A stretch of 64,000 nt of DNA, taken from Escherichia phage PSa2. The notes below the pieces were generated by a model, which worked only from the letters and a program-made list of their open reading frames with translations, was not told the DNA's origin and did no database searches. Shown here in pieces: positions 45,760-58,866 of this stretch. Position 1 is the first letter of the stretch, and every line of letters starts with the position of its first letter. Position numbers and translations under genes: made by a program. The stretch is taken from the sequence record OL770310. One strand, written 5' to 3'.

Positions 45760-45792
45760 TCCATAAAGAAAAGGAGGACATAAAGTCCTCCT
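45760..45792 (-). terminator. rho-independent terminator after tape measure gene
   Basis: AGGAGGAC/GTCCTCCT hairpin followed on the minus strand by TTTCTTTATGG. Confidence 0.6.
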
Positions 45793-45798
45793 CCAGTA

Positions 45799-48700
45799 TT
45801 AAGAATTACCAAGTGATTTCAGGGTGGTTCCATTCTCATTAAGAGCCTGTTCCACGGCATCCCTGAAAGCAGCACTATTGCTCGAAGCAAAATCTCGGAA
45901 GCTAGCCGCATCCATCGTACTAATGTTCAGCACAATAGGTCTACCCGATGTACCTTTTGAAGATCCTTTGAGTTCATCAGTAGGAGTAGCCTTCATTGGA
46001 ACCATAGGAGTGATTACTTCGGTACCGTGCTCACCCATCTGGTAACTAACTCCAGGATACATATTACCACCTTCTGCACGAGGTACGAAAGAGTTCGCAT
46101 TACCAATCCCTTGATCTCCTCGAATATAAGAAAGTTCACCTGCGTTAGCCGACATAGAAACGTCTACGTTCTTCTGGCGCTCTCCAAGAGTTAAGTAACC
46201 AGCCGTCTCAGCACCCGAGTCCCCAATAGAAGACATACCAGATGCAGAGGATGCTTGAGCAAGAGCCATAGCACCTGCTAAACCAGCTGCAACCATCAGA
46301 GGAATAGAGAATGGATATGGAACAGCTGTTGCTGCTTGCATCACCGCTACTGCCGTCTGGATAATGATTTGCTTCTTAGCTGCATCTTGCTGGATCTTGA
46401 GCTTTTCAGCCTCTAACTTCTTGATCTTAGCTTTGGATTGCTCAGATTTACCATCACGTTTCTGTTCTGCTGCAATAGCTGCATCAATAGCACTTACCTG
46501 TTGACCAACACTATACTGAATCATTGAAGATACAGTTTGCATACCAGCCGCTACTAGAGAGGTAGTATCCAGAGACCCTTGAGAGAACTGGATCATAGAG
46601 TTAGTTAAATTACCCATGCTTTGAGCTACAGCAGTTGCTTCGGAATTTAACTCAGATAGTTTAGAAATTGCTTGGTCATACGAAGACATCCTATTCTGCA
46701 TATCAGCAAAATCTTTATCTGCTCCAGATAGGCCAGTTGTAGGAGTATAAGTAGCTCCAACAGAAGAACCTACCTGTTGCTGCATCTGAGCATTACGTTG
46801 TGCTGTTAAAGCTGACATCTGAGCCCTTGTCTTAGCTATTTCAGCATTCCAGCGCATTTGCTCGTTAGCATTACCTTTGGTAAGTTCTTTCATCTGAGTA
46901 TAAAAATCTAACTGCATTTCCATTTTCTGCATTTCCCCTGCCAGAGGGAACAGGGAAGTTAGAGTATTTTCAAAGGCTTCTTGCCTTTTACTGGTCATTT
47001 CAGCTTGCTGGTCCTGACGGAATTTCCATATTTCACGTTCAATTTGGGCTTGAGAACGTCTAGACTGTTCAGCCTCTTTCTGTTTATCAGCTTGTTTTGT
47101 ATACCATTCGTACTTCTCTTTTTCAATGGTCAATTCAAGATTTAACTGTGCTAAACGATATTGAGTATCTGTCATAGTACGGTTATTCAGGAGAGCAATT
47201 TCACGATCAACACCAAGAATCTTATCGGTATAGTCCTTAACCTTCTTCTGAGCTTCCATACCCTGGTTAGTGATCTTAATACGTTCTAGCTGAATCTTAG
47301 CTATTTCACCTTCGATTGCTTTGTTACCTTTGTTAGTTTCTAGGACACGCTTAAGAGCTGCTTCCTGTTCTTCTAACTGTTGGATTTCCAGACGTCTACC
47401 AGCTTCCTGTGCTTTCTCTTTATCCTTAGTCTGGTTATACACTTCGGCAATCTTCTGCTGAACTTCTAACTGATTCTTAGTCTCATTACCAGTTAATTTT
47501 ACATAACCAGCAAGAGCTTGAGAAGCAGTCTTCATCTCACTAAGAGTATTATATCCTAAGTTCAGGCTCTTAACATACTCATCAGCATTTTTACCAGTAC
47601 CAGCAGAAAGAGACTCAATAGTCTTAATCGTATCTGATAGGGATGCACTAGTTTTAGCCGCAGTATTAGTATTCTGAGCGATGTTCTGGATATCGTTAGC
47701 TAAATCACTAGCAGTTTTCTTAGCCTGATCATATGCTTTCTGCTGTTCTGTCAGTCCTTTCAGAGTTGCAGAGTTGAAGTCATAAACCGCATCAGGGTCA
47801 TTTGCATCTTTCTGTAGGTTAATTTGCTTCTGGAATTCTGGATTAGCCTTAGCAGCTGCAGCACCAGCAGCTTGGTATGCCGATTTCCATGCATTAAGAT
47901 TGCCAGTTGAATCCTCTACTTCCTTATCAAGACGCTCTACCTGGAGAGCTAATGCAGCAGTATCTGCAATAAATTTCTGGTTTTCTTCAGAAGATCCTAT
48001 GCGAACTCCTCCTACTTCAAAACCTCCTGCAGCTAACCCTACCGGTGCACCTTGAGCAACTAAACGAATAGCCCCTGCTGTAGATGCATCTGCTTGCTGC
48101 ATACGCTTATCTAGATCAGCTTTTAACTTATTACGCTTTTCTAGAGATTCTTTGTACATATCAAGAGCTTTATTATATCCTTCCTCAGAAGCGGAAAGAC
48201 TTAAAGCTACAGCACCAACGTTAGTTGGATCAATCTGGCGGTTAGTTTCTTCCTGTGCTCTAGCAGCAGAAGCCGAGATAGACGCTTGAGAAGTATAGAA
48301 TACTGCGTTGATAGAATCAATTACCGGCCCTAAATACTTAGCAGCAGCCTGTTGAACTTTTCTCAGTGCAGCATCAGCGTTAGCAGCAAACTGTTCCCAC
48401 GGAGTTGCACGAAGTACGTCATCCAGATAGCCGAAACGTTTAGTAGATTCAGCGATTACTGCGTTAGCATATGCTTGTTGCTTTTGGAAAGTAGAAAGAC
48501 TATTGACGTTATACGTAATACCTGTGTTAGCAGCATTTAACTGTTTAACGTAGTCAGCATATGCATCGTTAAGACGAATAGTAACACCAAGTTCATCTAG
48601 AAGTTCGATTTCTTGCTTAGATACACCCTTGATTACACGGTTAAGTGCATCAGTCATATCAACACCAAGAACAGCAGCAGCACGACGAGCTACTAGACCA

Positions 48701-49509
48701 AATTTATTAAGTTGTTCAGCATCGAATCCATATGCAGAAGCAGAGGATGCCTGTCTCATTGCTTCTTCGAAGGAGATTGCATAACCAGCGGCCTCTTGTA
48801 GAGATCTAGCTAGGGTTTGTACAGGAGTACCTGTTTGAGTACCAACAATAGTACCAAACTTCTCAAGACGGTTTAACTGGTCACCCATCTTAAGTTGTTC
48901 GAATGCAGATTGTAGAACGAACACGTTAGATGCGATAGCAGCATACATAAGAGGTAAACTACCCCCCACTTTAGCCATTGCTGCGAAGTCACGAGTAGCA
49001 CCACGTGCTGAACCAGAAGTATTACCAATTGCACGACTAGCACGCCCTGCAGCGGTAGTTGTATCATTAAAGCCTCTAGCAGTATTACCTAGTGCTCGGT
49101 TAGTATCATATAATCTATCTTGAACTTTTTCAGTTGCAGCAGCTACATCATTACCAATCGCCTTAACAGATTTACCAACGTGTGTAAATCCAGATTCTAG
49201 CTTATCGGATACCTCGATCATAGCAATAGCAAGGTCATCTAACTTAGCACCAATACTATCCATAGATTTGGTGATGCCCATCATACCTCTGCTAGCCTGC
49301 ATTTTAGTTAGACTTTTAGCTGCTCTATCCGCCGCCCTCTCAATGGAGTAAAGAGTTTTGGGCATTTTTCCTAACTGTTCATTAGTCAGTTCGGAAGCGG
49401 CAGCAGCATTTTCTAACGCATCGGAAACGTTCTCAATAGATTTTGCAGTACGGGTTGCCCCTTTCTGCTTTACATCTATAAGTAGTTCTCGTATTAGCTT
49501 ATCAGTCAT
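45799..49509 (-). CDS. tail tape measure protein
   Basis: 1236 aa, coiled-coil Ala/Gln/Lys-rich; size and position typical of a tape measure protein. Confidence 0.85.
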   Translation of the reverse strand: MTDKLIRELLIDVKQKGATRTAKSIENVSDALENAAAASELTNEQLGKMPKTLYSIERAADRAAKSLTKMQASRGMMGITKSMDSIGAKLDDLAIAMIEVSDKLESGFTHVGKSVKAIGNDVAAATEKVQDRLYDTNRALGNTARGFNDTTTAAGRASRAIGNTSGSARGATRDFAAMAKVGGSLPLMYAAIASNVFVLQSAFEQLKMGDQLNRLEKFGTIVGTQTGTPVQTLARSLQEAAGYAISFEEAMRQASSASAYGFDAEQLNKFGLVARRAAAVLGVDMTDALNRVIKGVSKQEIELLDELGVTIRLNDAYADYVKQLNAANTGITYNVNSLSTFQKQQAYANAVIAESTKRFGYLDDVLRATPWEQFAANADAALRKVQQAAAKYLGPVIDSINAVFYTSQASISASAARAQEETNRQIDPTNVGAVALSLSASEEGYNKALDMYKESLEKRNKLKADLDKRMQQADASTAGAIRLVAQGAPVGLAAGGFEVGGVRIGSSEENQKFIADTAALALQVERLDKEVEDSTGNLNAWKSAYQAAGAAAAKANPEFQKQINLQKDANDPDAVYDFNSATLKGLTEQQKAYDQAKKTASDLANDIQNIAQNTNTAAKTSASLSDTIKTIESLSAGTGKNADEYVKSLNLGYNTLSEMKTASQALAGYVKLTGNETKNQLEVQQKIAEVYNQTKDKEKAQEAGRRLEIQQLEEQEAALKRVLETNKGNKAIEGEIAKIQLERIKITNQGMEAQKKVKDYTDKILGVDREIALLNNRTMTDTQYRLAQLNLELTIEKEKYEWYTKQADKQKEAEQSRRSQAQIEREIWKFRQDQQAEMTSKRQEAFENTLTSLFPLAGEMQKMEMQLDFYTQMKELTKGNANEQMRWNAEIAKTRAQMSALTAQRNAQMQQQVGSSVGATYTPTTGLSGADKDFADMQNRMSSYDQAISKLSELNSEATAVAQSMGNLTNSMIQFSQGSLDTTSLVAAGMQTVSSMIQYSVGQQVSAIDAAIAAEQKRDGKSEQSKAKIKKLEAEKLKIQQDAAKKQIIIQTAVAVMQAATAVPYPFSIPLMVAAGLAGAMALAQASSASGMSSIGDSGAETAGYLTLGERQKNVDVSMSANAGELSYIRGDQGIGNANSFVPRAEGGNMYPGVSYQMGEHGTEVITPMVPMKATPTDELKGSSKGTSGRPIVLNISTMDAASFRDFASSNSAAFRDAVEQALNENGTTLKSLGNS

Positions 49510-49520
49510 TTATTTTTCCC

Positions 49521-49554
49521 AATAAAAAAGGCTCTGGGCAAATCACCCAGAGCC
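49521..49554 (-). terminator. terminator plus conserved leader upstream of tape measure gene
   Basis: GGCTCTGGG/CCCAGAGCC hairpin then TTTTTTATTGGGAAAAATAA-ATG; the 25-mer is identical to the one at 54527..54551. Confidence 0.6.
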
Positions 49555-49589
49555 AAGCCTCATCGTGGAACGCCCATTGGAGGAAACTT

Positions 49590-49958
49590 TTACTGAGCTC
49601 GAGATCTAGCATGCGGTTTAATGTTCGGAGTACGACCATTAGGTTTACTATGCTTCTCGGCTCTCTTACGAGCTGCATCTACAGCTTTCGAATCAAATAT
49701 ATTGATGATGTGTAGAACAAACTCTTTTTCTATAGGATCAGTAATCCCATAGATATCAAATAAAACACCTAGTGCACTTTTATCTTTTCCTATAAAGATA
49801 GGAAAGTCACCTGGTATGAAACAGTCAATAAGGCTGTTATAAATATTCATACTAGTAGATACAATAGGTGGAAAATCTTCGAGTTCAACAGGCATTGCCT
49901 TAGGATCAGGTTCAATACCTAGTGAATCACAAAGCATTAAATATTGTTGTTTTGTCAT
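49590..49958 (-). CDS. hypothetical protein (possible tail assembly chaperone by position)
   Basis: 122 aa ORF between tail tube and tape measure genes. Confidence 0.4.
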   Translation of the reverse strand: MTKQQYLMLCDSLGIEPDPKAMPVELEDFPPIVSTSMNIYNSLIDCFIPGDFPIFIGKDKSALGVLFDIYGITDPIEKEFVLHIINIFDSKAVDAARKRAEKHSKPNGRTPNIKPHARSRAQ

Positions 49959-50019
49959 TTTAGATGCTGAGGATTTAATACATTTATCTGCAAAATCGGC
50001 AACAGCATCTAGTAACTGC

Positions 50020-50424
50020 TTACGCTTTTGAGCTACGAAAAGTATCTAAGTGGAACACTGTCTGGTTGATCCAAGAATCAAACGCAGCAGAGTTCTGCAT
50101 AAGCATGATAGCGTTATCGCGACTAAATGGAACTTCAGTAGTAGGATCAGCTTCAGTTTCGATAAGCATCAGCTTCTCAACATCTCCAATCGTCAAGCCA
50201 GTCCAGCCAGCAATTGCAGTGTCAACGAAAGCTTCAATAAACTTATCATCGTCCTGAACTTGAATCATAGTACCGTTAACCCACTCATCACGCTTAGCGG
50301 AAGAGATAACACGCTTAGATGCAGCACGAGACATGTAGTTTAGTTGCAGCTTGAAGTTAGGCATACCTGGGTAAGCCAGCTCAATAGTACGAGTTTCAAG
50401 GGTAATATCTTTTAAATTGATCAT
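50020..50424 (-). CDS. hypothetical protein (possible tail assembly chaperone by position)
   Basis: 134 aa ORF. Confidence 0.4.
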   Translation of the reverse strand: MINLKDITLETRTIELAYPGMPNFKLQLNYMSRAASKRVISSAKRDEWVNGTMIQVQDDDKFIEAFVDTAIAGWTGLTIGDVEKLMLIETEADPTTEVPFSRDNAIMLMQNSAAFDSWINQTVFHLDTFRSSKA

Positions 50425-51320
50425 TTCTTTATTTCTCCAAAGAAGTCGATTCTTACCGGATCAGAGTCTGCAGTAGGGATTACATCCCATTCAACTCTGT
50501 ATATATCCGAGAATTGTAGGCGTTTTGTTATACGTGCTGAAGGAAAATCAATAGAAATATGTTCATTTCGGATGGTTAATGGGATGTCAGTTTCGGGTTC
50601 AATATTATAAAACGTATCACCAGCAAATCGCTTGGTATAGTAAAATGCAATTGTTGCCGAAGCATTCATTTCATTAACATAAGCTCTCTTATTATTATAT
50701 ATTTTGTTTATGTCAAATACGCTTTTATCTTCTCTCCAAGAACATTGTTGCTGGAAGGACATAGAAGCAGATAAAAGAGCTGGTAAAACATTACTGTTGG
50801 TAGATACTCTAGGAGGACTATATGATATAACTTCACCCTGAACAATAGAACCAGCAGGAGTAAAAGTAGACACCTCAGAGAATTTACCGGATTCAATCCC
50901 TACGTTTAGGATAGGGACACTTTTATCTAGAGAAAAATCTACATTAGATACGTAGCAATTCTCGAAGTATACACAGTTATTATCTTTATTAACTATGTAT
51001 ATATTAAACATTGTTGGCTCAATATTTGTACTATAAAGTGGTAGTAAGAATGTGTTACCCTCTCTATCAAAGCCCATCCATTCAAAGAAGTTAGCTTCAG
51101 TAAGGGTATTACTAAAATTTATAGCCAGCGATATTGAAGATGGAGTTTGTGCATTAATAATAGAGTCAGCATAGTTGGTTCTACGATGGATAGTCCTACG
51201 AAGAGTTTTAAATTCCTCGTAGGAGGTATTAATATCATAATTTGACAGAGCGTCAAAGTGATACGCTCTGCCATCATACTCAACTATAATTTTTGACTCT
51301 CGCATTAGAGAGTAATACAT
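50421..51320 (-). CDS. tail structural protein, unassigned
   Basis: 299 aa ORF directly downstream of the tail tube gene. Confidence 0.4.
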   Translation of the reverse strand: MYYSLMRESKIIVEYDGRAYHFDALSNYDINTSYEEFKTLRRTIHRRTNYADSIINAQTPSSISLAINFSNTLTEANFFEWMGFDREGNTFLLPLYSTNIEPTMFNIYIVNKDNNCVYFENCYVSNVDFSLDKSVPILNVGIESGKFSEVSTFTPAGSIVQGEVISYSPPRVSTNSNVLPALLSASMSFQQQCSWREDKSVFDINKIYNNKRAYVNEMNASATIAFYYTKRFAGDTFYNIEPETDIPLTIRNEHISIDFPSARITKRLQFSDIYRVEWDVIPTADSDPVRIDFFGEIKK

Positions 51321-51324
51321 TTAA

Positions 51325-52734
51325 TTAGCCACCAGAAGCAGTAACTGTAATGCTCTTAGTACCTTCTACACCAGAACCGTCTTTAGCTACAGCTTTAACA
51401 GTAACTGCACCTACTTTGGTAACATCAGCAGTTAGCAGACCGGAATCAGCATCAATAGTAGCTGCTGTACCAGAAGAGATAGACCAAGTTACAGCCTTAT
51501 TAGTAGCTTCTGCAGGCAGAACATCTACTGTCATCTGGAGAGTTGCACTATTTTCAACTGTAGTTGCATCCCCAGCAGACTTAACAGTAATGCCAGTAAC
51601 TGGGACCGGAGCAGCTTGACCACCATCACCTGTAGCAATCAGGTTAGCAATAGTAGTTTTAGTATACTTATTAGAGAAACCAAGATAACCTTCATCACCA
51701 GTATCCAGATCAGTAGGAATTGCTTTGAACTCTACAGAAGTACCAAGTACATCGTCAGTCTCAATAGTTGGGATGTTTACGTGAGCTTGCTTAGCAACCA
51801 GAACAGCAGCAGGGCGCTCATCATCATATTCACCACCAAGTACTAGAGCGATTTCGAAACGGTTAACTACTTTCAGGGTCTTAATTAGATCTTTGTACAG
51901 ATCCATAGAACCTAGAGCTTTATCGTTAAGATAAGCAGTTAGAGAACCAGTTAATTCGAATGCACCAGTAAATGAACCGATTGGAATGTTTACACGAGAC
52001 ATAATATTCGGAGTCAGATAGGTGATGTTGTTGTTGATTGTGAAGCTACCACCAGTGATCGGAATATCGTATGCCTTACCACTATCCATATCCTTAATCT
52101 TCAGAATAGTCAGTTTGTTCTTGATGTAAGAACTTTGGATAGTCATGTAAGTTTCATCATCGATACCTACAATATCAGGATCAAATGGTTGTGAATCCAA
52201 TGGGATCAGCTGGTTACCATTACCTGACCAAGTTACACGACCGATATCTTCGATATCAACGTTTACTTCAGCTTGGTTGATCTGACAGGAATCAATATAG
52301 CTCCATGCTTTATCCGTAAGGATATAGATGTGCAGCATATCCAGTTCGTGGTATGCATTATCTTTAAAGTTAACCATGAAGTTAGTTTCGTTGGTATGAG
52401 CCCCAGTATCACCATCAAGATTGATACGCTTACCACTAGATAGCGCATGCCATAACATATAGTCTGGAACGATCTGCTTACTAGTAGTCTTATCTAAGTA
52501 AGGCAGGATGTAAGTAGAGAAACTCCACTCAGCTGCGTTCAGGGAGTCGTTGAAACGTTTTGAACCACGAGTTGGACGCGGACCAGCTTCGTTAACAGTA
52601 ATATCGGTTGAGTTACTGTCCTGACCCCAAGAAATATCATCTTGAACTAGAATCTCTTGCGTGTTGGTCTTATCGTGACCAGTCTTAACCGTAGACACGA
52701 AGATTCGAGTATTACGTAATAGTTGTAAAGACAT
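51325..52734 (-). CDS. major tail tube protein with C-terminal Ig-like domain
   Basis: 469 aa; C-terminal Ig-like segment (TGITVKSAGDATTVENSATLQMTVDVLPAEATNKAVTWSISSGTAATIDADSGLLTADV). Confidence 0.7.
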   Translation of the reverse strand: MSLQLLRNTRIFVSTVKTGHDKTNTQEILVQDDISWGQDSNSTDITVNEAGPRPTRGSKRFNDSLNAAEWSFSTYILPYLDKTTSKQIVPDYMLWHALSSGKRINLDGDTGAHTNETNFMVNFKDNAYHELDMLHIYILTDKAWSYIDSCQINQAEVNVDIEDIGRVTWSGNGNQLIPLDSQPFDPDIVGIDDETYMTIQSSYIKNKLTILKIKDMDSGKAYDIPITGGSFTINNNITYLTPNIMSRVNIPIGSFTGAFELTGSLTAYLNDKALGSMDLYKDLIKTLKVVNRFEIALVLGGEYDDERPAAVLVAKQAHVNIPTIETDDVLGTSVEFKAIPTDLDTGDEGYLGFSNKYTKTTIANLIATGDGGQAAPVPVTGITVKSAGDATTVENSATLQMTVDVLPAEATNKAVTWSISSGTAATIDADSGLLTADVTKVGAVTVKAVAKDGSGVEGTKSITVTASGG

Positions 52735-52760
52735 TTATTTATATTCTCCTAATCTGTAAC

Positions 52761-53246
52761 TTATCTGCGAAGTGCCCTACGAGGTGGCTGATACCTCACT
52801 GTTACATTTATTTCCGCTAAACCATATGGGGCCAGTAGACCTTCATCTGTAGCTACTGAGGTAATGCTCATATCAGTTGCCTCACATGGGAAGGTCGATC
52901 CATTAGGTTTACTAACAGTATATTCTAAATTTCCACCTGTGTCAATGACGGTTTTTATGTCAGCTACGAGTTTTTCAAGTTGCTCTTGAATATCTGTTTT
53001 CTCTTTGTCATACACGAAGATTGGAAGTTCTAAAAACATCCACTGTTGGCCTGAAGGAAGATACTGCCCAGTTTCAGTTCCGATATGGACTGCCACATAA
53101 GGAAATTCTCGGATTTCCTCAAATTTATAAGTTTGACGAGAAACGTTTCCATAAAGGTTATTGAAATACTCGTCAGGTTGTGAACCATCCATTTGTGTGG
53201 CGATTCGGTCAACCACTGCTTGTGCAATACTTGTTCTGTGATCCAT
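52761..53246 (-). CDS. tail terminator / neck protein (by position)
   Basis: 161 aa ORF between capsid-proximal genes and the tail tube. Confidence 0.4.
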   Translation of the reverse strand: MDHRTSIAQAVVDRIATQMDGSQPDEYFNNLYGNVSRQTYKFEEIREFPYVAVHIGTETGQYLPSGQQWMFLELPIFVYDKEKTDIQEQLEKLVADIKTVIDTGGNLEYTVSKPNGSTFPCEATDMSITSVATDEGLLAPYGLAEINVTVRYQPPRRALRR

Positions 53247-53249
53247 TTA

Positions 53250-54017
53250 TTAGGTTCCTTGATTAACCTTGATTTTATATCTAGAGTGAATCAGGTCTCT
53301 TGCAGCTTTTGCGATTGCTTCCCCAATAAGTTTTTGAGGGTTTCGAGCGCCAGGGTAAGGTCGTAGAGAAAGTCTTCGATATGTAGAAACTGCGGGGTTG
53401 AACACAGAATAAGGACGAACCATATAATTATACGTCACATTCAGCTCTGGAGCACCTTTACTAGTTTCTGCATCACGTAGCATAACGTCTTTAATCTTTA
53501 AGGAGTTAGCAAAGCGACCAGTTCTGAACTTCAATGGTGCTCCTGCTTTTTTCATATCCTTGATTAAGTATTCCTTAGCTACTATCTCAAGAATAGCACG
53601 CATGTTACTATTTGATACGAAACGACCGGAAGCACCTGTTACTGCACCAGAATAGCCATCTTCAGTATCTCTAGGATCTCCAAAGTTTACCTGAACTCTA
53701 CCGGTAGAACGTTTTTTACCAACAGCAGAACGTTTACCCGCGGTTGCTTGAATTAGATTCTCTAGAGCACCTAAATCACCAGAAAGATCTAAGTTAGAAG
53801 AGACGGCCTTCAATATAGATGCTGTCCTAACATTTAATAAGTCTTGAGATACTGGTTTTGAGAATTTGAAAGATACCTGTGCAACTGTACCATCTCTTGT
53901 AGGGTCTTTCAAACCTGTCTCAACTGTATACACAACAGTATTCTTATTATTCTCAGATCGTCCTGCAGTATCTAGCTGCTCTTTAATAATTTGTCTAGCT
54001 AGATCAGAAAGAGCCAT
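53250..54017 (-). CDS. neck / tail completion protein (by position)
   Basis: 255 aa ORF. Confidence 0.4.
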   Translation of the reverse strand: MALSDLARQIIKEQLDTAGRSENNKNTVVYTVETGLKDPTRDGTVAQVSFKFSKPVSQDLLNVRTASILKAVSSNLDLSGDLGALENLIQATAGKRSAVGKKRSTGRVQVNFGDPRDTEDGYSGAVTGASGRFVSNSNMRAILEIVAKEYLIKDMKKAGAPLKFRTGRFANSLKIKDVMLRDAETSKGAPELNVTYNYMVRPYSVFNPAVSTYRRLSLRPYPGARNPQKLIGEAIAKAARDLIHSRYKIKVNQGT

Positions 54018-54529
54018 TACACTCTCCTATAGACTTCGATGATTGTACGAATATGCTCTGGAATACCAGACTTAGTATTGTTAAACGTAACTGTCTCACC
54101 ACCAATAGTCTTGGCTTGACGATAATCTTGCTTATGCCAGTGATCTACTAACAGACATGCTGCCAGTTTAAGATCTTCAGGCATTGGATTGAAACCACCT
54201 TGAGTATACTCTACATCCATGTACCCTTCAGGAGGATTAAACTTAAGGAGAATAACACCATCAGGGTACAATTTAAACTGTTCCGGGTCTATTTCATTCT
54301 CGTTAATAGTCATCTTTGTAATAGATGTGGCTGAGGGAGAACTCAGAAAATATTTCCTACGGCTAGGTTTTGTAGTGATTAATTGATCTACCGCATCTGC
54401 ATCATCCATACCTAGAAGGCTCGTAATCAGCGTATTGGCAGCTTTAATCATCATCTCAACCTGAGTTTCCATATCAGGTCGCTTTGCGTTAGCATATAGT
54501 CTGTAGTCTTCAACAGTGATGATTTGCAT
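54017..54529 (-). CDS. head completion / head-tail adaptor protein (by position)
   Basis: 170 aa ORF immediately downstream of the major capsid gene. Confidence 0.4.
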   Translation of the reverse strand: MQIITVEDYRLYANAKRPDMETQVEMMIKAANTLITSLLGMDDADAVDQLITTKPSRRKYFLSSPSATSITKMTINENEIDPEQFKLYPDGVILLKFNPPEGYMDVEYTQGGFNPMPEDLKLAACLLVDHWHKQDYRQAKTIGGETVTFNNTKSGIPEHIRTIIEVYRRV

Positions 54530-54540
54530 TTATTTTTCCC

Positions 54541-54567
54541 AATAAAAAAGGAGAGCCGAAGCTCTCC
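54541..54567 (-). terminator. terminator after major capsid gene with UUCG-loop hairpin
   Basis: Minus strand GGAGAGC-TTCG-GCTCTCC then TTTTTTATTGGGAAAAATAA-ATG. Confidence 0.65.
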
Positions 54568-54588
54568 TTATCGGCTGAAAAGCCTGTA

Positions 54589-55965
54589 TTAAGATGCAGC
54601 GTAAGCACCAGATACAACGCCGTTTTCGAAGTAACGTTGCAGGTTAACACGCTGAGTAACGTAGTATGCGTCACGCTGTTTGCCAGCTTGGCGCTCACGT
54701 TCAACAGTAACAGCACGCTGACGCGGCATTACGAAGTTATCTTTGTAAACAATAACTGCGAATTCTGCAGAAGCAGCTTTAGCTGGGAAATACTCAGAAA
54801 CTACAACCGGCAGACCGTAAATACGACCAACCTGACCTTGCAGTTTAACAGCATCGTTACCAACCTGGGCAACATCCTGCCATTCTTCATCTTCCAGCAG
54901 ATCGTAGTAAGCATCCATAGATACGATCAGTACCAGTTTGCTCAGTTTCAGACCATGACGGCCCAGTTTACGACGCAGCTTGGAGATAGTCTTAGCAGTT
55001 ACCAGAACAGAACCGTCAGCTTTAGCTTCGGTAACAACCTTAGCACCATCATCAGCAGCCAGTTTCAGCAGACCCTTAGGCTGACCAGTACCATTACCAG
55101 ACATGAAAGCTTCTTCGATAGAAACAGCGTGTGCTTCGATCAGACGCTTACGCAGCAGAGGCAGCAGGGAGAAGATTGCATCTTCTTCAGTTTCATCAGT
55201 GATGAAGGATTTAGCAGCCAGCTTGTAAGTTTTGAAGCTGATTTCAGTCAGTTGACCTTTAACTTCGTCACCAACAGTTTCGTCAGTACCGAATTTGGAA
55301 GCATCTACCCAAGTAGCGCGACCAGCTTCTGGTTCAACGAGCATAGTAAGGATTTTGCTGGACATTGGCAGTTCATCGAACAGTGCACCAACTACCAGTT
55401 CCTTCTGCAGGTCACGAATAATACGGGTAGAGAAGATAGTTTCGTATGCTTCGCTAGACATGGAAACGGAAGAAGAACCGTTAACAGCTTTAATGTGAGC
55501 CTTACCATGTTCAGTTTCGAATACGTCTTTCTCCATCATATAAGACAGAAGAACCAGTTTCTCAACTTCATCTTCGAAAGCATCCTGAGTGCCATAAAGA
55601 GCTTTAGCTACGCTATCACCAACGAAGGAACGACCTTCACGAGCTGCCAACAGAGACTTGATTTCGTCCTGAAGACCAACGATGGTTTCCTGTTGCTTTT
55701 CTACAGTCTGTGCAAACAGTTCTGCGCTCTTCTTAGACTTCTCATCCAGGTTCTTAACCAGATCCAGAGCTTCTTCCAGACGCTTACGGTCTTCACCAAC
55801 AGCTTTAGATACTAGGTCGTTCATACGAGCCAGTTCTTTTTCTTCCTGCTCTTCACGCAGACGCTTAGCTTCCGCAGCTTTCTGAGCAGCGGTCAGACCT
55901 TCCAGAGATTTAGCCAGATCACCCAGACCAAGTTCTTCCTTCAGCTTATTAATATCAATAGTCAT
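54589..55965 (-). CDS. major capsid protein (HK97-fold type)
   Basis: 458 aa; N-terminal scaffold-like coiled coil; strongly host-like codon usage; followed by a strong terminator. Confidence 0.85.
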   Translation of the reverse strand: MTIDINKLKEELGLGDLAKSLEGLTAAQKAAEAKRLREEQEEKELARMNDLVSKAVGEDRKRLEEALDLVKNLDEKSKKSAELFAQTVEKQQETIVGLQDEIKSLLAAREGRSFVGDSVAKALYGTQDAFEDEVEKLVLLSYMMEKDVFETEHGKAHIKAVNGSSSVSMSSEAYETIFSTRIIRDLQKELVVGALFDELPMSSKILTMLVEPEAGRATWVDASKFGTDETVGDEVKGQLTEISFKTYKLAAKSFITDETEEDAIFSLLPLLRKRLIEAHAVSIEEAFMSGNGTGQPKGLLKLAADDGAKVVTEAKADGSVLVTAKTISKLRRKLGRHGLKLSKLVLIVSMDAYYDLLEDEEWQDVAQVGNDAVKLQGQVGRIYGLPVVVSEYFPAKAASAEFAVIVYKDNFVMPRQRAVTVERERQAGKQRDAYYVTQRVNLQRYFENGVVSGAYAAS

Positions 55966-58315: not shown

Positions 58316-58839
58316 TATAAGAACCTTGCGAATCCTGATTTAGTTTCAGTCTTGACTTGTGTCTTTTCTTGAGGATTCTGTAGCTTTTCCTTTTGTTTAA
58401 GAACCCATGCCTTCTGCTTATTAGCAGAGAAAAGGGGAGGTTCTTTAGTGTACACCTTATGTAATAGTTGGTGATGGTGGACACAAAGGGTAACAGTGTC
58501 GTCTACTAGCTCATGCCTATATCTTTCATAGAATGCCGTCCTATTTGAGAGGACTGTTTCTTCGTTAGTGAAATCCAACTGGAGTTCTTTAGCAAATTTT
58601 TTAACTAGTAGAGACACTGTATGGTAATGATGAAGCTCTAATTCTTCACCACAACCACAGATTTCGCAGCGATCGGCTTTTTTATATTGACTTTTTATAC
58701 CGTCTCGCATGAGTGATATAGCATCACGTTTATATTTTACATTTCCTGCCACAGTATTCTCCTCAACTGTATGAATATAGTATACATAATCATGTCGAAT
58801 TTGTAAAGGGGATTTTAAAATGCAGGAATGGGATACCAA
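58315..58839 (-). CDS. HNH endonuclease-like protein
   Basis: CEICGCGEELELHHYH...N...LCVHHHQLLH: Cys/His pattern of the HNH motif. Confidence 0.6.
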   Translation of the reverse strand: MVSHSCILKSPLQIRHDYVYYIHTVEENTVAGNVKYKRDAISLMRDGIKSQYKKADRCEICGCGEELELHHYHTVSLLVKKFAKELQLDFTNEETVLSNRTAFYERYRHELVDDTVTLCVHHHQLLHKVYTKEPPLFSANKQKAWVLKQKEKLQNPQEKTQVKTETKSGFARFL

Positions 58840-58866
58840 CTGAGTAGTATCCCATCCTATACTTAT

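What the first reader, a model, noticed from the sequence alone, without database searches (positions are those of the whole stretch)
49507..54567. Identical hairpin-plus-leader element before two late genes
The 25-mer CCTTTTTTATTGGGAAAAATAAATG (minus strand) occurs at 49507..49531 and 54527..54551, each preceded by a different GC-rich hairpin (one with a UUCG loop), immediately before the tape measure gene and the head-completion gene. Different stems with an identical U-tract/leader suggest a selected regulatory unit (partial terminator plus fixed translation-initiation region) that sets stoichiometry after highly expressed genes.
Basis: seen in the sequence. Interest (0 to 1): 0.45.

Follow-up and report, generated by a model that had tools for sequence, protein, structure and literature searches.

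The report
Two late-operon terminators sharing one leader
Two intrinsic transcription terminators in the late structural operon of a T5-like phage each run straight into the same ribosome-binding leader of a low-copy virion gene; the arrangement is real and strongly conserved, but it is an ordinary kind of gene-dosage control and both terminators are already annotated in phage T5.

Summary
The 25-mer CCTTTTTTATTGGGAAAAATAAATG occurs exactly twice, at 49507-49531 and 54527-54551 (minus strand). Each copy follows a different GC-rich hairpin and ends in the ATG of the tape-measure or head-completion gene. The window is an Epseptimavirus, 99% identical to Escherichia phage SuperGirl. Hairpin, U-tract, SD and ATG are packed the same way at both positions across Demerecviridae (E. 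coli, Salmonella, Klebsiella, Pectobacterium and Vibrio phages), with different stems in different lineages. That fits leaky intrinsic terminators placed where the operon passes from high-copy to low-copy genes. In the T5/Epseptimavirus group both intergenic blocks are far more conserved than third-codon positions. The identity of the two leaders is not a family-wide rule. Leaders differ in other lineages, variants arise at one site only, and T5 itself lost the leader at the tape-measure gene to a homing-endonuclease insertion. The same 23-mer also recurs by chance or convergence in unrelated phages and bacteria. The T5 reference record already annotates both hairpins as putative rho-independent terminators and annotates promoter P-J5, which feeds the unit closed by site 1. 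Verdict: real, functional, a known kind, low to moderate interest.

The parts
54527..54551 (-). Copy 2 of the 25-mer. It comprises the last 2 stem bases (CC), the U-tract UUUUUUAUU (54549-54541), the weak SD GGGA (54540-54537), the A-rich spacer and the ATG (54529-54527) of the head-completion gene.
54550..54567 (-). Site-2 terminator hairpin GGAGAGC-UUCG-GCUCUCC, extendable by AA/UU to 54569-54548. It lies 21 nt after the stop codon of the major capsid gene.
   Evidence: -12 kcal/mol for the core stem. The orthologue is annotated as a putative rho-independent terminator in T5.
54573..54584 (-). Small upstream hairpin GGCU-UUUC-AGCC between the capsid stop codon and the terminator. The stem is kept while the loop varies in Klebsiella and Pectobacterium relatives.
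49507..49531 (-). Copy 1 of the 25-mer. It comprises the last 2 stem bases, the U-tract (49529-49521), the SD GGGA (49520-49517), the spacer and the ATG (49509-49507) of the tape measure gene.
49530..49554 (-). Site-1 terminator hairpin GGCUCUGGGU-GAUUU-GCCCAGAGCC.
   Evidence: -19.1 kcal/mol. The orthologue is annotated as a putative rho-independent terminator in T5.
49555..49589 (-). Conserved non-coding element upstream of the site-1 terminator, AAGUUUCCUCCAAUGGGCGUUCCACGAUGAGGCUU. It contains an anti-SD-like CCUCC and a UUCCACGA motif. It folds into a hairpin or, alternatively, pairs with the tape-measure SD around the terminator.
   Evidence: One-nucleotide indels between close relatives show that it is non-coding.
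52917..52945 (-). Conserved sigma-70-type promoter TTGACA-17-TATACT inside the tail-terminator-protein gene. It drives the tail tube, minor tail and two chaperone ORFs, and site 1 closes this unit.
   Evidence: Annotated as 'promoter P-J 5' in T5.
58779..58807 (-). Promoter-like TTTACA-17-TATACT, conserved at a homologous position upstream of the portal-to-capsid block. It is the candidate start of the unit that site 2 closes.
45770..45794 (-). Third terminator, after the tape measure gene (GGAGGAGGAC-UUUAU-GUCCUCCUUU). Its tail CCTTTTCTTTATGGAAAAATAAAAA resembles the 25-mer but leads into a promoter (45745-45717) and not into an ATG.

Best explanation
Sites 1 and 2 are leaky rho-independent terminators inside the late structural gene cluster of a T5-like phage. 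Site 2 ends the head unit (portal, decoration protein, protease, major capsid protein). Site 1 ends the unit driven by the P-J5-type promoter (tail tube, minor tail protein, two tail-assembly-chaperone ORFs). The U-tract of each terminator is followed directly by the Shine-Dalgarno sequence, with the start codon 14 nt after the U-tract. The next gene is needed in few copies per virion: the head-completion adaptor after site 2 and the tape measure protein after site 1. These genes can therefore be transcribed only by polymerases that read through the hairpin, which lowers their mRNA level relative to the upstream high-copy genes. The hairpin left at the 3' end probably also stabilises the terminated upstream mRNA. 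The shared 25-mer is where three constrained signals overlap. These are a 9-nt U-tract, a weak GGGA SD, and the AAAUAAAUG start context that several late genes use. In the T5/Epseptimavirus lineage both sites settled on the same sequence, either from a common origin or by one old conversion event, and purifying selection holds each site separately. The sequence features, positions, conservation and promoters are shown here. Termination, read-through fraction and dosage effect are inferred.
For: Hairpin plus U-tract geometry is present at both sites. Both rank among the best terminator-like sites in a 20-kb scan. The same architecture occurs at both positions in E. coli, Salmonella, Klebsiella, Pectobacterium and Vibrio Demerecviridae, with at least 6-8 different stems per site, which is compensatory replacement. 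Only 14 nt separate the U-tract from the ATG, and no promoter is predicted in that gap. The upstream promoters are conserved family-wide, with invariant hexamers while the spacer and codons change. The T5 record annotates P-J5 and both terminators. The intergenic blocks differ from the window by 0.6-1.1% on average. Third-codon positions differ by 14-43%, and the neighbouring P134-P122 gap by 12.9%. ATAAATG is the start context of five late genes. Leader variants occur at one site only per genome.
Against: No transcript 3'-end or expression data were available for any T5-like phage. T5 modifies the host RNA polymerase, so in vivo efficiency is unknown. Loops and linkers, which a plain terminator does not need, are almost invariant within the T5 group. 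This hints at an extra constraint that the model does not explain. Site 1 follows chaperone ORFs and not the most abundant tail protein.
Confidence: 0.75

Rival explanations
1. The two cassettes are specific recognition sites for a phage-encoded factor, such as an antiterminator, an RNA-binding translational repressor or a processing nuclease. The factor would co-regulate the head-completion and tape measure genes, and that would explain why the leaders are identical and why every nucleotide is conserved.
For: The whole blocks, including loops and linkers, are almost invariant in 25-27 distinct genomes. There are exactly two copies per genome, both before low-copy genes.
Against: The two leaders do not co-vary within genomes across the family (p=0.41 for the tail and 0.18 for the core, excluding the window lineage). 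Single-site variants are tolerated. T5 dispenses with the leader at the tape measure gene. The hairpins, the most obvious recognition feature, differ between the two sites. No Rfam family matches.
Confidence: 0.1
2. The hairpins act mainly as mRNA 3'-end protectors or processing sites, like the RNase III sites of T7, and not as transcription stops. Dosage would then be set by differential mRNA decay.
For: Each site has two tandem hairpins. A stable UUCG tetraloop is typical of exonuclease barriers. The upstream hairpins are conserved.
Against: A perfect 6-7 U run directly after the stem is kept in every lineage. Termination needs this run, but a decay barrier does not. The two roles are not exclusive.
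Confidence: 0.1
3. At site 1 the pyrimidine-rich element upstream of the terminator (CCUCC, UUCCAC) pairs with the tape-measure SD in read-through RNA. The helix encloses the terminator hairpin and adds translational repression to the transcriptional attenuation.
For: CCUCC or UUCC motifs are conserved upstream of site 1 in all lineages although the region is non-coding. The SD is predicted to be paired with probability 0.55-0.99 in 8 of 9 lineages.
Against: Composition-matched shuffles of the upstream segment pair with the SD almost as often (rank fractions 0.10-0.66, median 0.19). Any SD is complementary to CCUCC by definition. Site 2 shows no such signal.
Confidence: 0.2
4. The repeat is a neutral leftover of a recent duplication or gene conversion and has no functional meaning.
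For: The identity is exact. The tails of the two sites in outgroups suggest that the site-2 leader moved towards the site-1 type in the ancestor of the T5 group.
Against: The 22-23-nt identity is shared by essentially all Tequintavirus and Epseptimavirus genomes sampled, so it is old. It is held by purifying selection 20-60 times stronger than at third-codon positions. There is no ongoing homogenisation, because variants are single-site.
Confidence: 0.05

Closest known systems
Putative rho-independent terminators annotated in the phage T5 reference genome (NC_005859: 96553-96587 and 101563-101586), together with promoter P-J5
   Same: They are orthologous elements. They have the same hairpins, the same positions after T5.142 (chaperone) and T5.149 (pb8), and the same internal promoter in the tail-terminator gene.
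   Different: In T5 an endonuclease gene (T5.141) sits between the site-1 U-tract and pb2, so the shared leader survives only at site 2. The record does not mention the shared leader or the family-wide conservation.
Phage T7 terminator T-phi after major capsid gene 10 (textbook knowledge, not tested here)
   Same: An incomplete terminator directly after the major capsid gene lets a fraction of polymerases continue into lower-copy virion genes.
   Different: T-phi acts on T7 RNA polymerase, whereas T5-like phages use the host polymerase. T-phi is not fused to the next gene's ribosome-binding site, and there is no second copy with the same leader.
Promoter-early stem-loop (PeSL) repeats of T4-type phages (from memory, not tested here)
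   Same: They are short conserved intergenic cassettes that combine a stem-loop with an expression signal and are repeated within one phage genome.
   Different: PeSLs occur in many copies, carry a promoter, flank mobile accessory genes and are thought to promote shuffling. Here there are only two copies, no promoter, and the flanking genes are core structural genes.

Membership tests
Rho-independent (intrinsic) terminator | GC-rich stem-loop on the sense strand downstream of a stop codon | tested here: met
   The stems have 7-10 bp and energies of -12 and -19 kcal/mol. They start 21 and 35 nt after the capsid and chaperone stop codons.
Rho-independent (intrinsic) terminator | U-rich tract immediately 3' of the stem | tested here: met
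   UUUUUUAUU directly abuts both stems. A T5-7 run is kept in every lineage examined.
Rho-independent (intrinsic) terminator | The structure, not the sequence, is conserved among relatives | tested here: met
   There are at least 6 different stems at site 1 and 8 at site 2 across Demerecviridae, all forming hairpins at the same position. An RNAalifold run on MAFFT alignments was uninformative.
Rho-independent (intrinsic) terminator | RNA 3' ends generated at the U-tract | not testable with these tools
   No Term-seq or transcript mapping for T5-like phages was found.
Operon-internal attenuator (leaky terminator setting gene dosage) | Essential downstream genes have no promoter of their own after the terminator | tested here: met
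   Only 14 nt separate the U-tract from the ATG, and no promoter-like site lies in or across the element. The next conserved promoter is 1.6 kb further on.
Operon-internal attenuator (leaky terminator setting gene dosage) | Measured partial read-through and lower downstream expression | not testable with these tools
   This needs RNA or protein quantification in infected cells.
Shared translational operator / regulon (several genes' initiation regions bound by one repressor) | The operator sequences of co-regulated genes co-vary between lineages | tested here: not met
   The permutation test on 7-8 lineages found no within-genome similarity excess outside the T5 group. Single-site variants also occur.
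Dispersed intergenic repeat family (PeSL/REP-like) | Many copies spread through the genome | tested here: not met
   There are two copies in about 111 kb, plus one distant relative after the tape measure gene.

The most novel reading that the evidence does not exclude
The near-total nucleotide invariance of both 59-80-nt blocks, including loops and linkers, reflects a second layer of control that uses the terminator as a scaffold. At site 1 this would be a helix between the conserved CCUCC/UUCCAC element and the tape-measure SD that clamps around the terminator hairpin. Read-through transcripts would then be translationally throttled, or opened by a phage factor or by ribosomes finishing the chaperone ORF. 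This would couple tape-measure synthesis to chaperone synthesis.
Probability: 0.12. Interest if true: 0.5.

Novelty: already known. Interest (0 to 1): 0.22.

Why it matters
It gives a clear, comparative picture of how a large virulent siphophage that uses the host polymerase divides its late structural cluster into promoter-terminator units matching virion copy numbers. It also shows that these junctions are among the most conserved sequences in the region. That is useful for annotation, for engineering T5-like therapeutic phages (places where insertions are tolerated or harmful) and for designing expression cassettes. It does not reveal a new mechanism.

Tried and rejected
- **Coding explanation:** ORF 49502-49678 overlaps site 1. 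I rejected it as coding because close relatives differ by 1-nt indels inside it.
- **Promoter inside the 25-mer:** no acceptable -10/-35 pair was found.
- **Rfam:** only two sub-threshold chance hits.
- **T5 nick-site consensus:** no usable consensus in the accessible literature, so I dropped it.
- **Homology of the L134 match:** an unrelated 42.6-kb phage has a hairpin, the same 24-mer and a tape measure gene. The two tape measure proteins are not similar. The 23-mer also occurs in Clostridia and Nostoc genomes. I treat the match as convergence or chance in low-complexity sequence.
- **RNAalifold on MAFFT alignments of divergent intergenic regions:** the arms were misaligned and almost no consensus pairs were found. 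I replaced it with per-sequence folds.
- **SD sequestration:** suggestive, but not distinguishable from composition-matched shuffles.
- **Concerted evolution or gene conversion still in progress:** rejected, because variants are single-site.
- **Bidirectional terminator:** the antisense strand has no U-tract after either hairpin (read directly).
Full report
**Observation.** The minus-strand 25-mer CCTTTTTTATTGGGAAAAATAAATG is present exactly at 49507-49531 and 54527-54551. No other match exists in the window even with three mismatches, and none of 100 dinucleotide shuffles gave any match. Each copy begins with the last two bases of a GC-rich hairpin. Site 2 has GGAGAGC-UUCG-GCUCUCC at 54567-54550, and site 1 has GGCUCUGGGU-GAUUU-GCCCAGAGCC at 49554-49530. 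Each copy ends with a start codon.

**Identity of the genome and genes.** The region is 99% identical to Escherichia phage SuperGirl (Demerecviridae, Epseptimavirus), and 546 phage records match it. Using that annotation and PHROG matches, the minus-strand gene order runs as follows:
- portal, decoration protein, prohead protease and major capsid protein (54589-55965)
- site 2
- head-completion adaptor (54017-54529), tail completion protein and tail terminator protein
- tail tube (51325-52734) and minor tail protein
- two tail-assembly-chaperone ORFs, P134 (50020-50424) and P122 (49590-49958)
- site 1
- tape measure protein (45799-49509)

Site 2 therefore follows the capsid gene directly. Site 1 follows the chaperone pair and not the tail tube gene.

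**Whole-genome and collection-wide search.**
- The rest of the SuperGirl genome holds no further copy.
- A third terminator lies after the tape measure gene (45794-45770). Its tail, CCTTTTCTTTATGGAAAAATAAAAA, is related to the 25-mer. It leads into a conserved near-consensus promoter (TTGATA-17-TATAAT, 45745-45717) for the distal tail protein gene and not into an ATG.
- In IMG/VR the 21-nt core occurs 51 times in T5-like genomes, 26 at site 2 and 25 at site 1. It occurs three times elsewhere, each time after a hairpin.
- One of those cases is an unrelated 42.6-kb phage in which the same 24-mer precedes a tape measure gene. The two tape measure proteins are not detectably similar.
- The 23-mer including the ATG also occurs in Clostridia and Nostoc genomes, in at least three independent contexts, twice before ORFs of 203 and 247 aa.
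- The string itself is therefore a recurrent low-complexity solution for a terminator tail followed by an A-rich ribosome-binding site.

**Comparative anatomy.**
- In about 30 Tequintavirus and Epseptimavirus genomes both sites are present. They share at least CCTTTTTTATTGGGAAAAATAAA.
- Most Tequintavirus genomes have a spacer 3 nt longer at site 1 (…AAAACATG or …AAAATATG). The full 25-mer identity is therefore specific to the Epseptimavirus subset.
- Variants occur at only one of the two sites in a given genome. At site 2 these are L012/L021, L013/L018 and L029. At site 1 they are L005, L015, L016 and L026. There is no concerted evolution.
- In T5 an HNH-type endonuclease gene (T5.141; phrog_681/559) is inserted exactly after …CCTTTTTTATT. 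The tape measure gene pb2 then has a different leader.
- In L012/L018/L021/L120 a roughly 700-nt insertion lies between the capsid stop codon and the site-2 hairpins.
- Beyond the T5 group, the same layout holds at both positions: stop codon, GC hairpin (-12 to -22 kcal/mol), five to seven T's, SD, and an ATG within about 17-28 nt. This applies to Klebsiella phage IME260, Pectobacterium phages DU_PP_V and My1, Vibrio phages Ceto and phi 3, and metagenomic relatives down to 47% capsid identity. The stems differ between lineages.
- In the Vibrio lineages the gene after site 1 is an extra ORF of about 280 aa that precedes the tape measure gene. The terminator therefore belongs to the end of the chaperone unit and not to the tape measure gene.

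**Selection.** I compared 25-27 distinct T5-group genomes with the window.

| Region | Mean difference from the window |
|---|---|
| Site-1 intergenic block (80 nt) | 0.006 |
| Site-2 intergenic block (59 nt) | 0.011 |
| Site-3 intergenic block | 0.044 |
| P134-P122 gap | 0.129 |
| Third-codon positions of flanking genes | 0.14-0.43 |

With insertion-bearing loci excluded, only 3-5% of intergenic columns vary. By comparison, 49-83% of third-position columns vary. Loops, linkers and the small upstream hairpins are conserved too. This is stronger than a plain terminator needs and is the one feature my model does not fully explain.

**Transcription units.**
- A TTGACA-17-TATACT promoter lies inside the tail-terminator-protein gene (52945-52917). 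Its hexamers are invariant in T5, IME260, DU_PP_V, My1 and Ceto, and a near-identical TTGACT form is seen in L108. Its spacer and the surrounding codons change.
- The T5 reference record annotates this site as 'promoter P-J 5'. From memory, this is one of the T5 promoters characterised functionally in the 1980s.
- A second promoter-like site (TTTACA-17-TATACT, 58807-58779) is conserved at a homologous position upstream of the portal-to-capsid block.
- The same T5 record annotates both hairpins as putative rho-independent terminators.
- The resulting model has three steps. A head promoter drives portal through capsid, and site 2 lets some transcription leak into the adaptor, tail completion and tail terminator genes. 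P-J5 drives tail tube, minor tail and the chaperones, and site 1 lets some leak into the tape measure gene, which ends at site 3. A further promoter then drives the distal tail genes.
- No promoter fits in the 14 nt between the U-tract and the ATG. The essential head-completion and tape measure genes must therefore be transcribed by read-through.

**Why the leaders are identical.**
- The 3' part (ATAAATG) is the start context of five late genes: protease, head completion, tail terminator, tail tube and tape measure.
- The 5' part is the U-tract.
- Across lineages both sites follow T5-7, ATT or similar, a G-rich SD, an A-rich spacer and ATG.
- Unrelated site and lineage pairs can be nearly identical. 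My1 site 1 against Vibrio phi 3 site 2 scores 0.92.
- A permutation test shows no within-genome excess similarity outside the T5 group. Excluding the window lineage, p is 0.41 for the whole tail and 0.18 for the core.
- The identity is therefore lineage-specific. It is most simply explained as two sites occupying the same narrow optimum, possibly after one old conversion event, each held by its own purifying selection. It is not a shared recognition site.

**Extra lead at site 1.** The non-coding element between the chaperone stop codon and the terminator carries CCUCC and UUCCACGA motifs that are conserved family-wide. In folds of read-through RNA the downstream SD is paired with this element in 8 of 9 lineages, with probability 0.55-0.99. 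Composition-matched shuffles of the upstream segment do nearly as well, with a median rank of 0.19. The idea of an SD clamp around the terminator therefore remains only suggestive. Site 2 shows no such signal.

**Literature.** Accessible papers only report generic counts of predicted terminators and promoters in T5-like genomes. I found no transcript 3'-end mapping.

**Verdict.** It overstates the significance of the identical leader. The elements are orthologues of terminators already annotated in T5, and the principle is textbook (T7 T-phi). Interest is low to moderate, and the unexplained near-invariance of the whole blocks is the only open point.

Noticed in passing
window 50035-50048 (-), with ORFs 50020-50424 and 49590-49958: This is a candidate programmed +1 ribosomal frameshift joining the two tail-assembly-chaperone ORFs. 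P134 and P122 match the N- and C-terminal halves of one chaperone family (phrog_313). The P122 frame is +1 relative to P134, has no SD before its ATG, and stays open back into the end of P134. In 11 of 12 lineages (E. coli, Klebsiella, Pectobacterium and Vibrio phages and metagenomic relatives) the short overlap starts with a +1-frame stop codon. Exactly 5 nt later comes an in-frame UUU CGN (here UUU CGU, 50040-50035). The T5 and fuchur records annotate two separate CDSs with no slippage join. This would be a lambda G/GT analogue that uses +1 instead of -1.
   Followed up: partly
L020 10180-10977 (T5; = NC_005859 95777-96529): An HNH-type endonuclease gene (T5.141) is inserted precisely between the site-1 U-tract and the pb2 start, replacing the shared leader. 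A different insertion of about 700 nt sits between the capsid stop codon and the site-2 hairpins in L012/L018/L021/L120. It is flanked by a 38-nt perfect palindrome, TATATTATATTAGTATGACGTCATACTAATATAATATA. The ultra-conserved junctions seem to be preferred landing sites for mobile endonuclease genes.
   Followed up: partly
L134 9511-9531 (-) (IMGVR_UViG_3300032255_000005) and L165: An unrelated 42.6-kb phage contig carries the hairpin GCCGC-UUUUAA-GCGGC followed by the same 24-mer and the ATG of its own 639-aa tape measure gene (phrog_9483). The upstream neighbour appears to be on the opposite strand. I treated this as convergence or chance, but the shared gene context is curious.
   Followed up: partly
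L113-L117, L126 (Vibrio phages Ceto, phi 3 and relatives), about 850 nt between the site-1 terminator and the tape measure gene: A conserved extra ORF of about 280 aa (MIKDLKTYIETVNK… or MTIKNFKDYQK…) follows the site-1 terminator before the tape measure gene in the Vibrio lineages. Its function was not examined.
   Followed up: no
window 58826-58857 (-): A 13-bp hairpin (GGATGGGATACTACTCAGTTGGTATCCCATTC) without a good U-tract lies between the large terminase gene and the nicking-endonuclease ORF. It sits immediately upstream of the conserved TTTACA-17-TATACT promoter-like site at 58807-58779.
   Followed up: no
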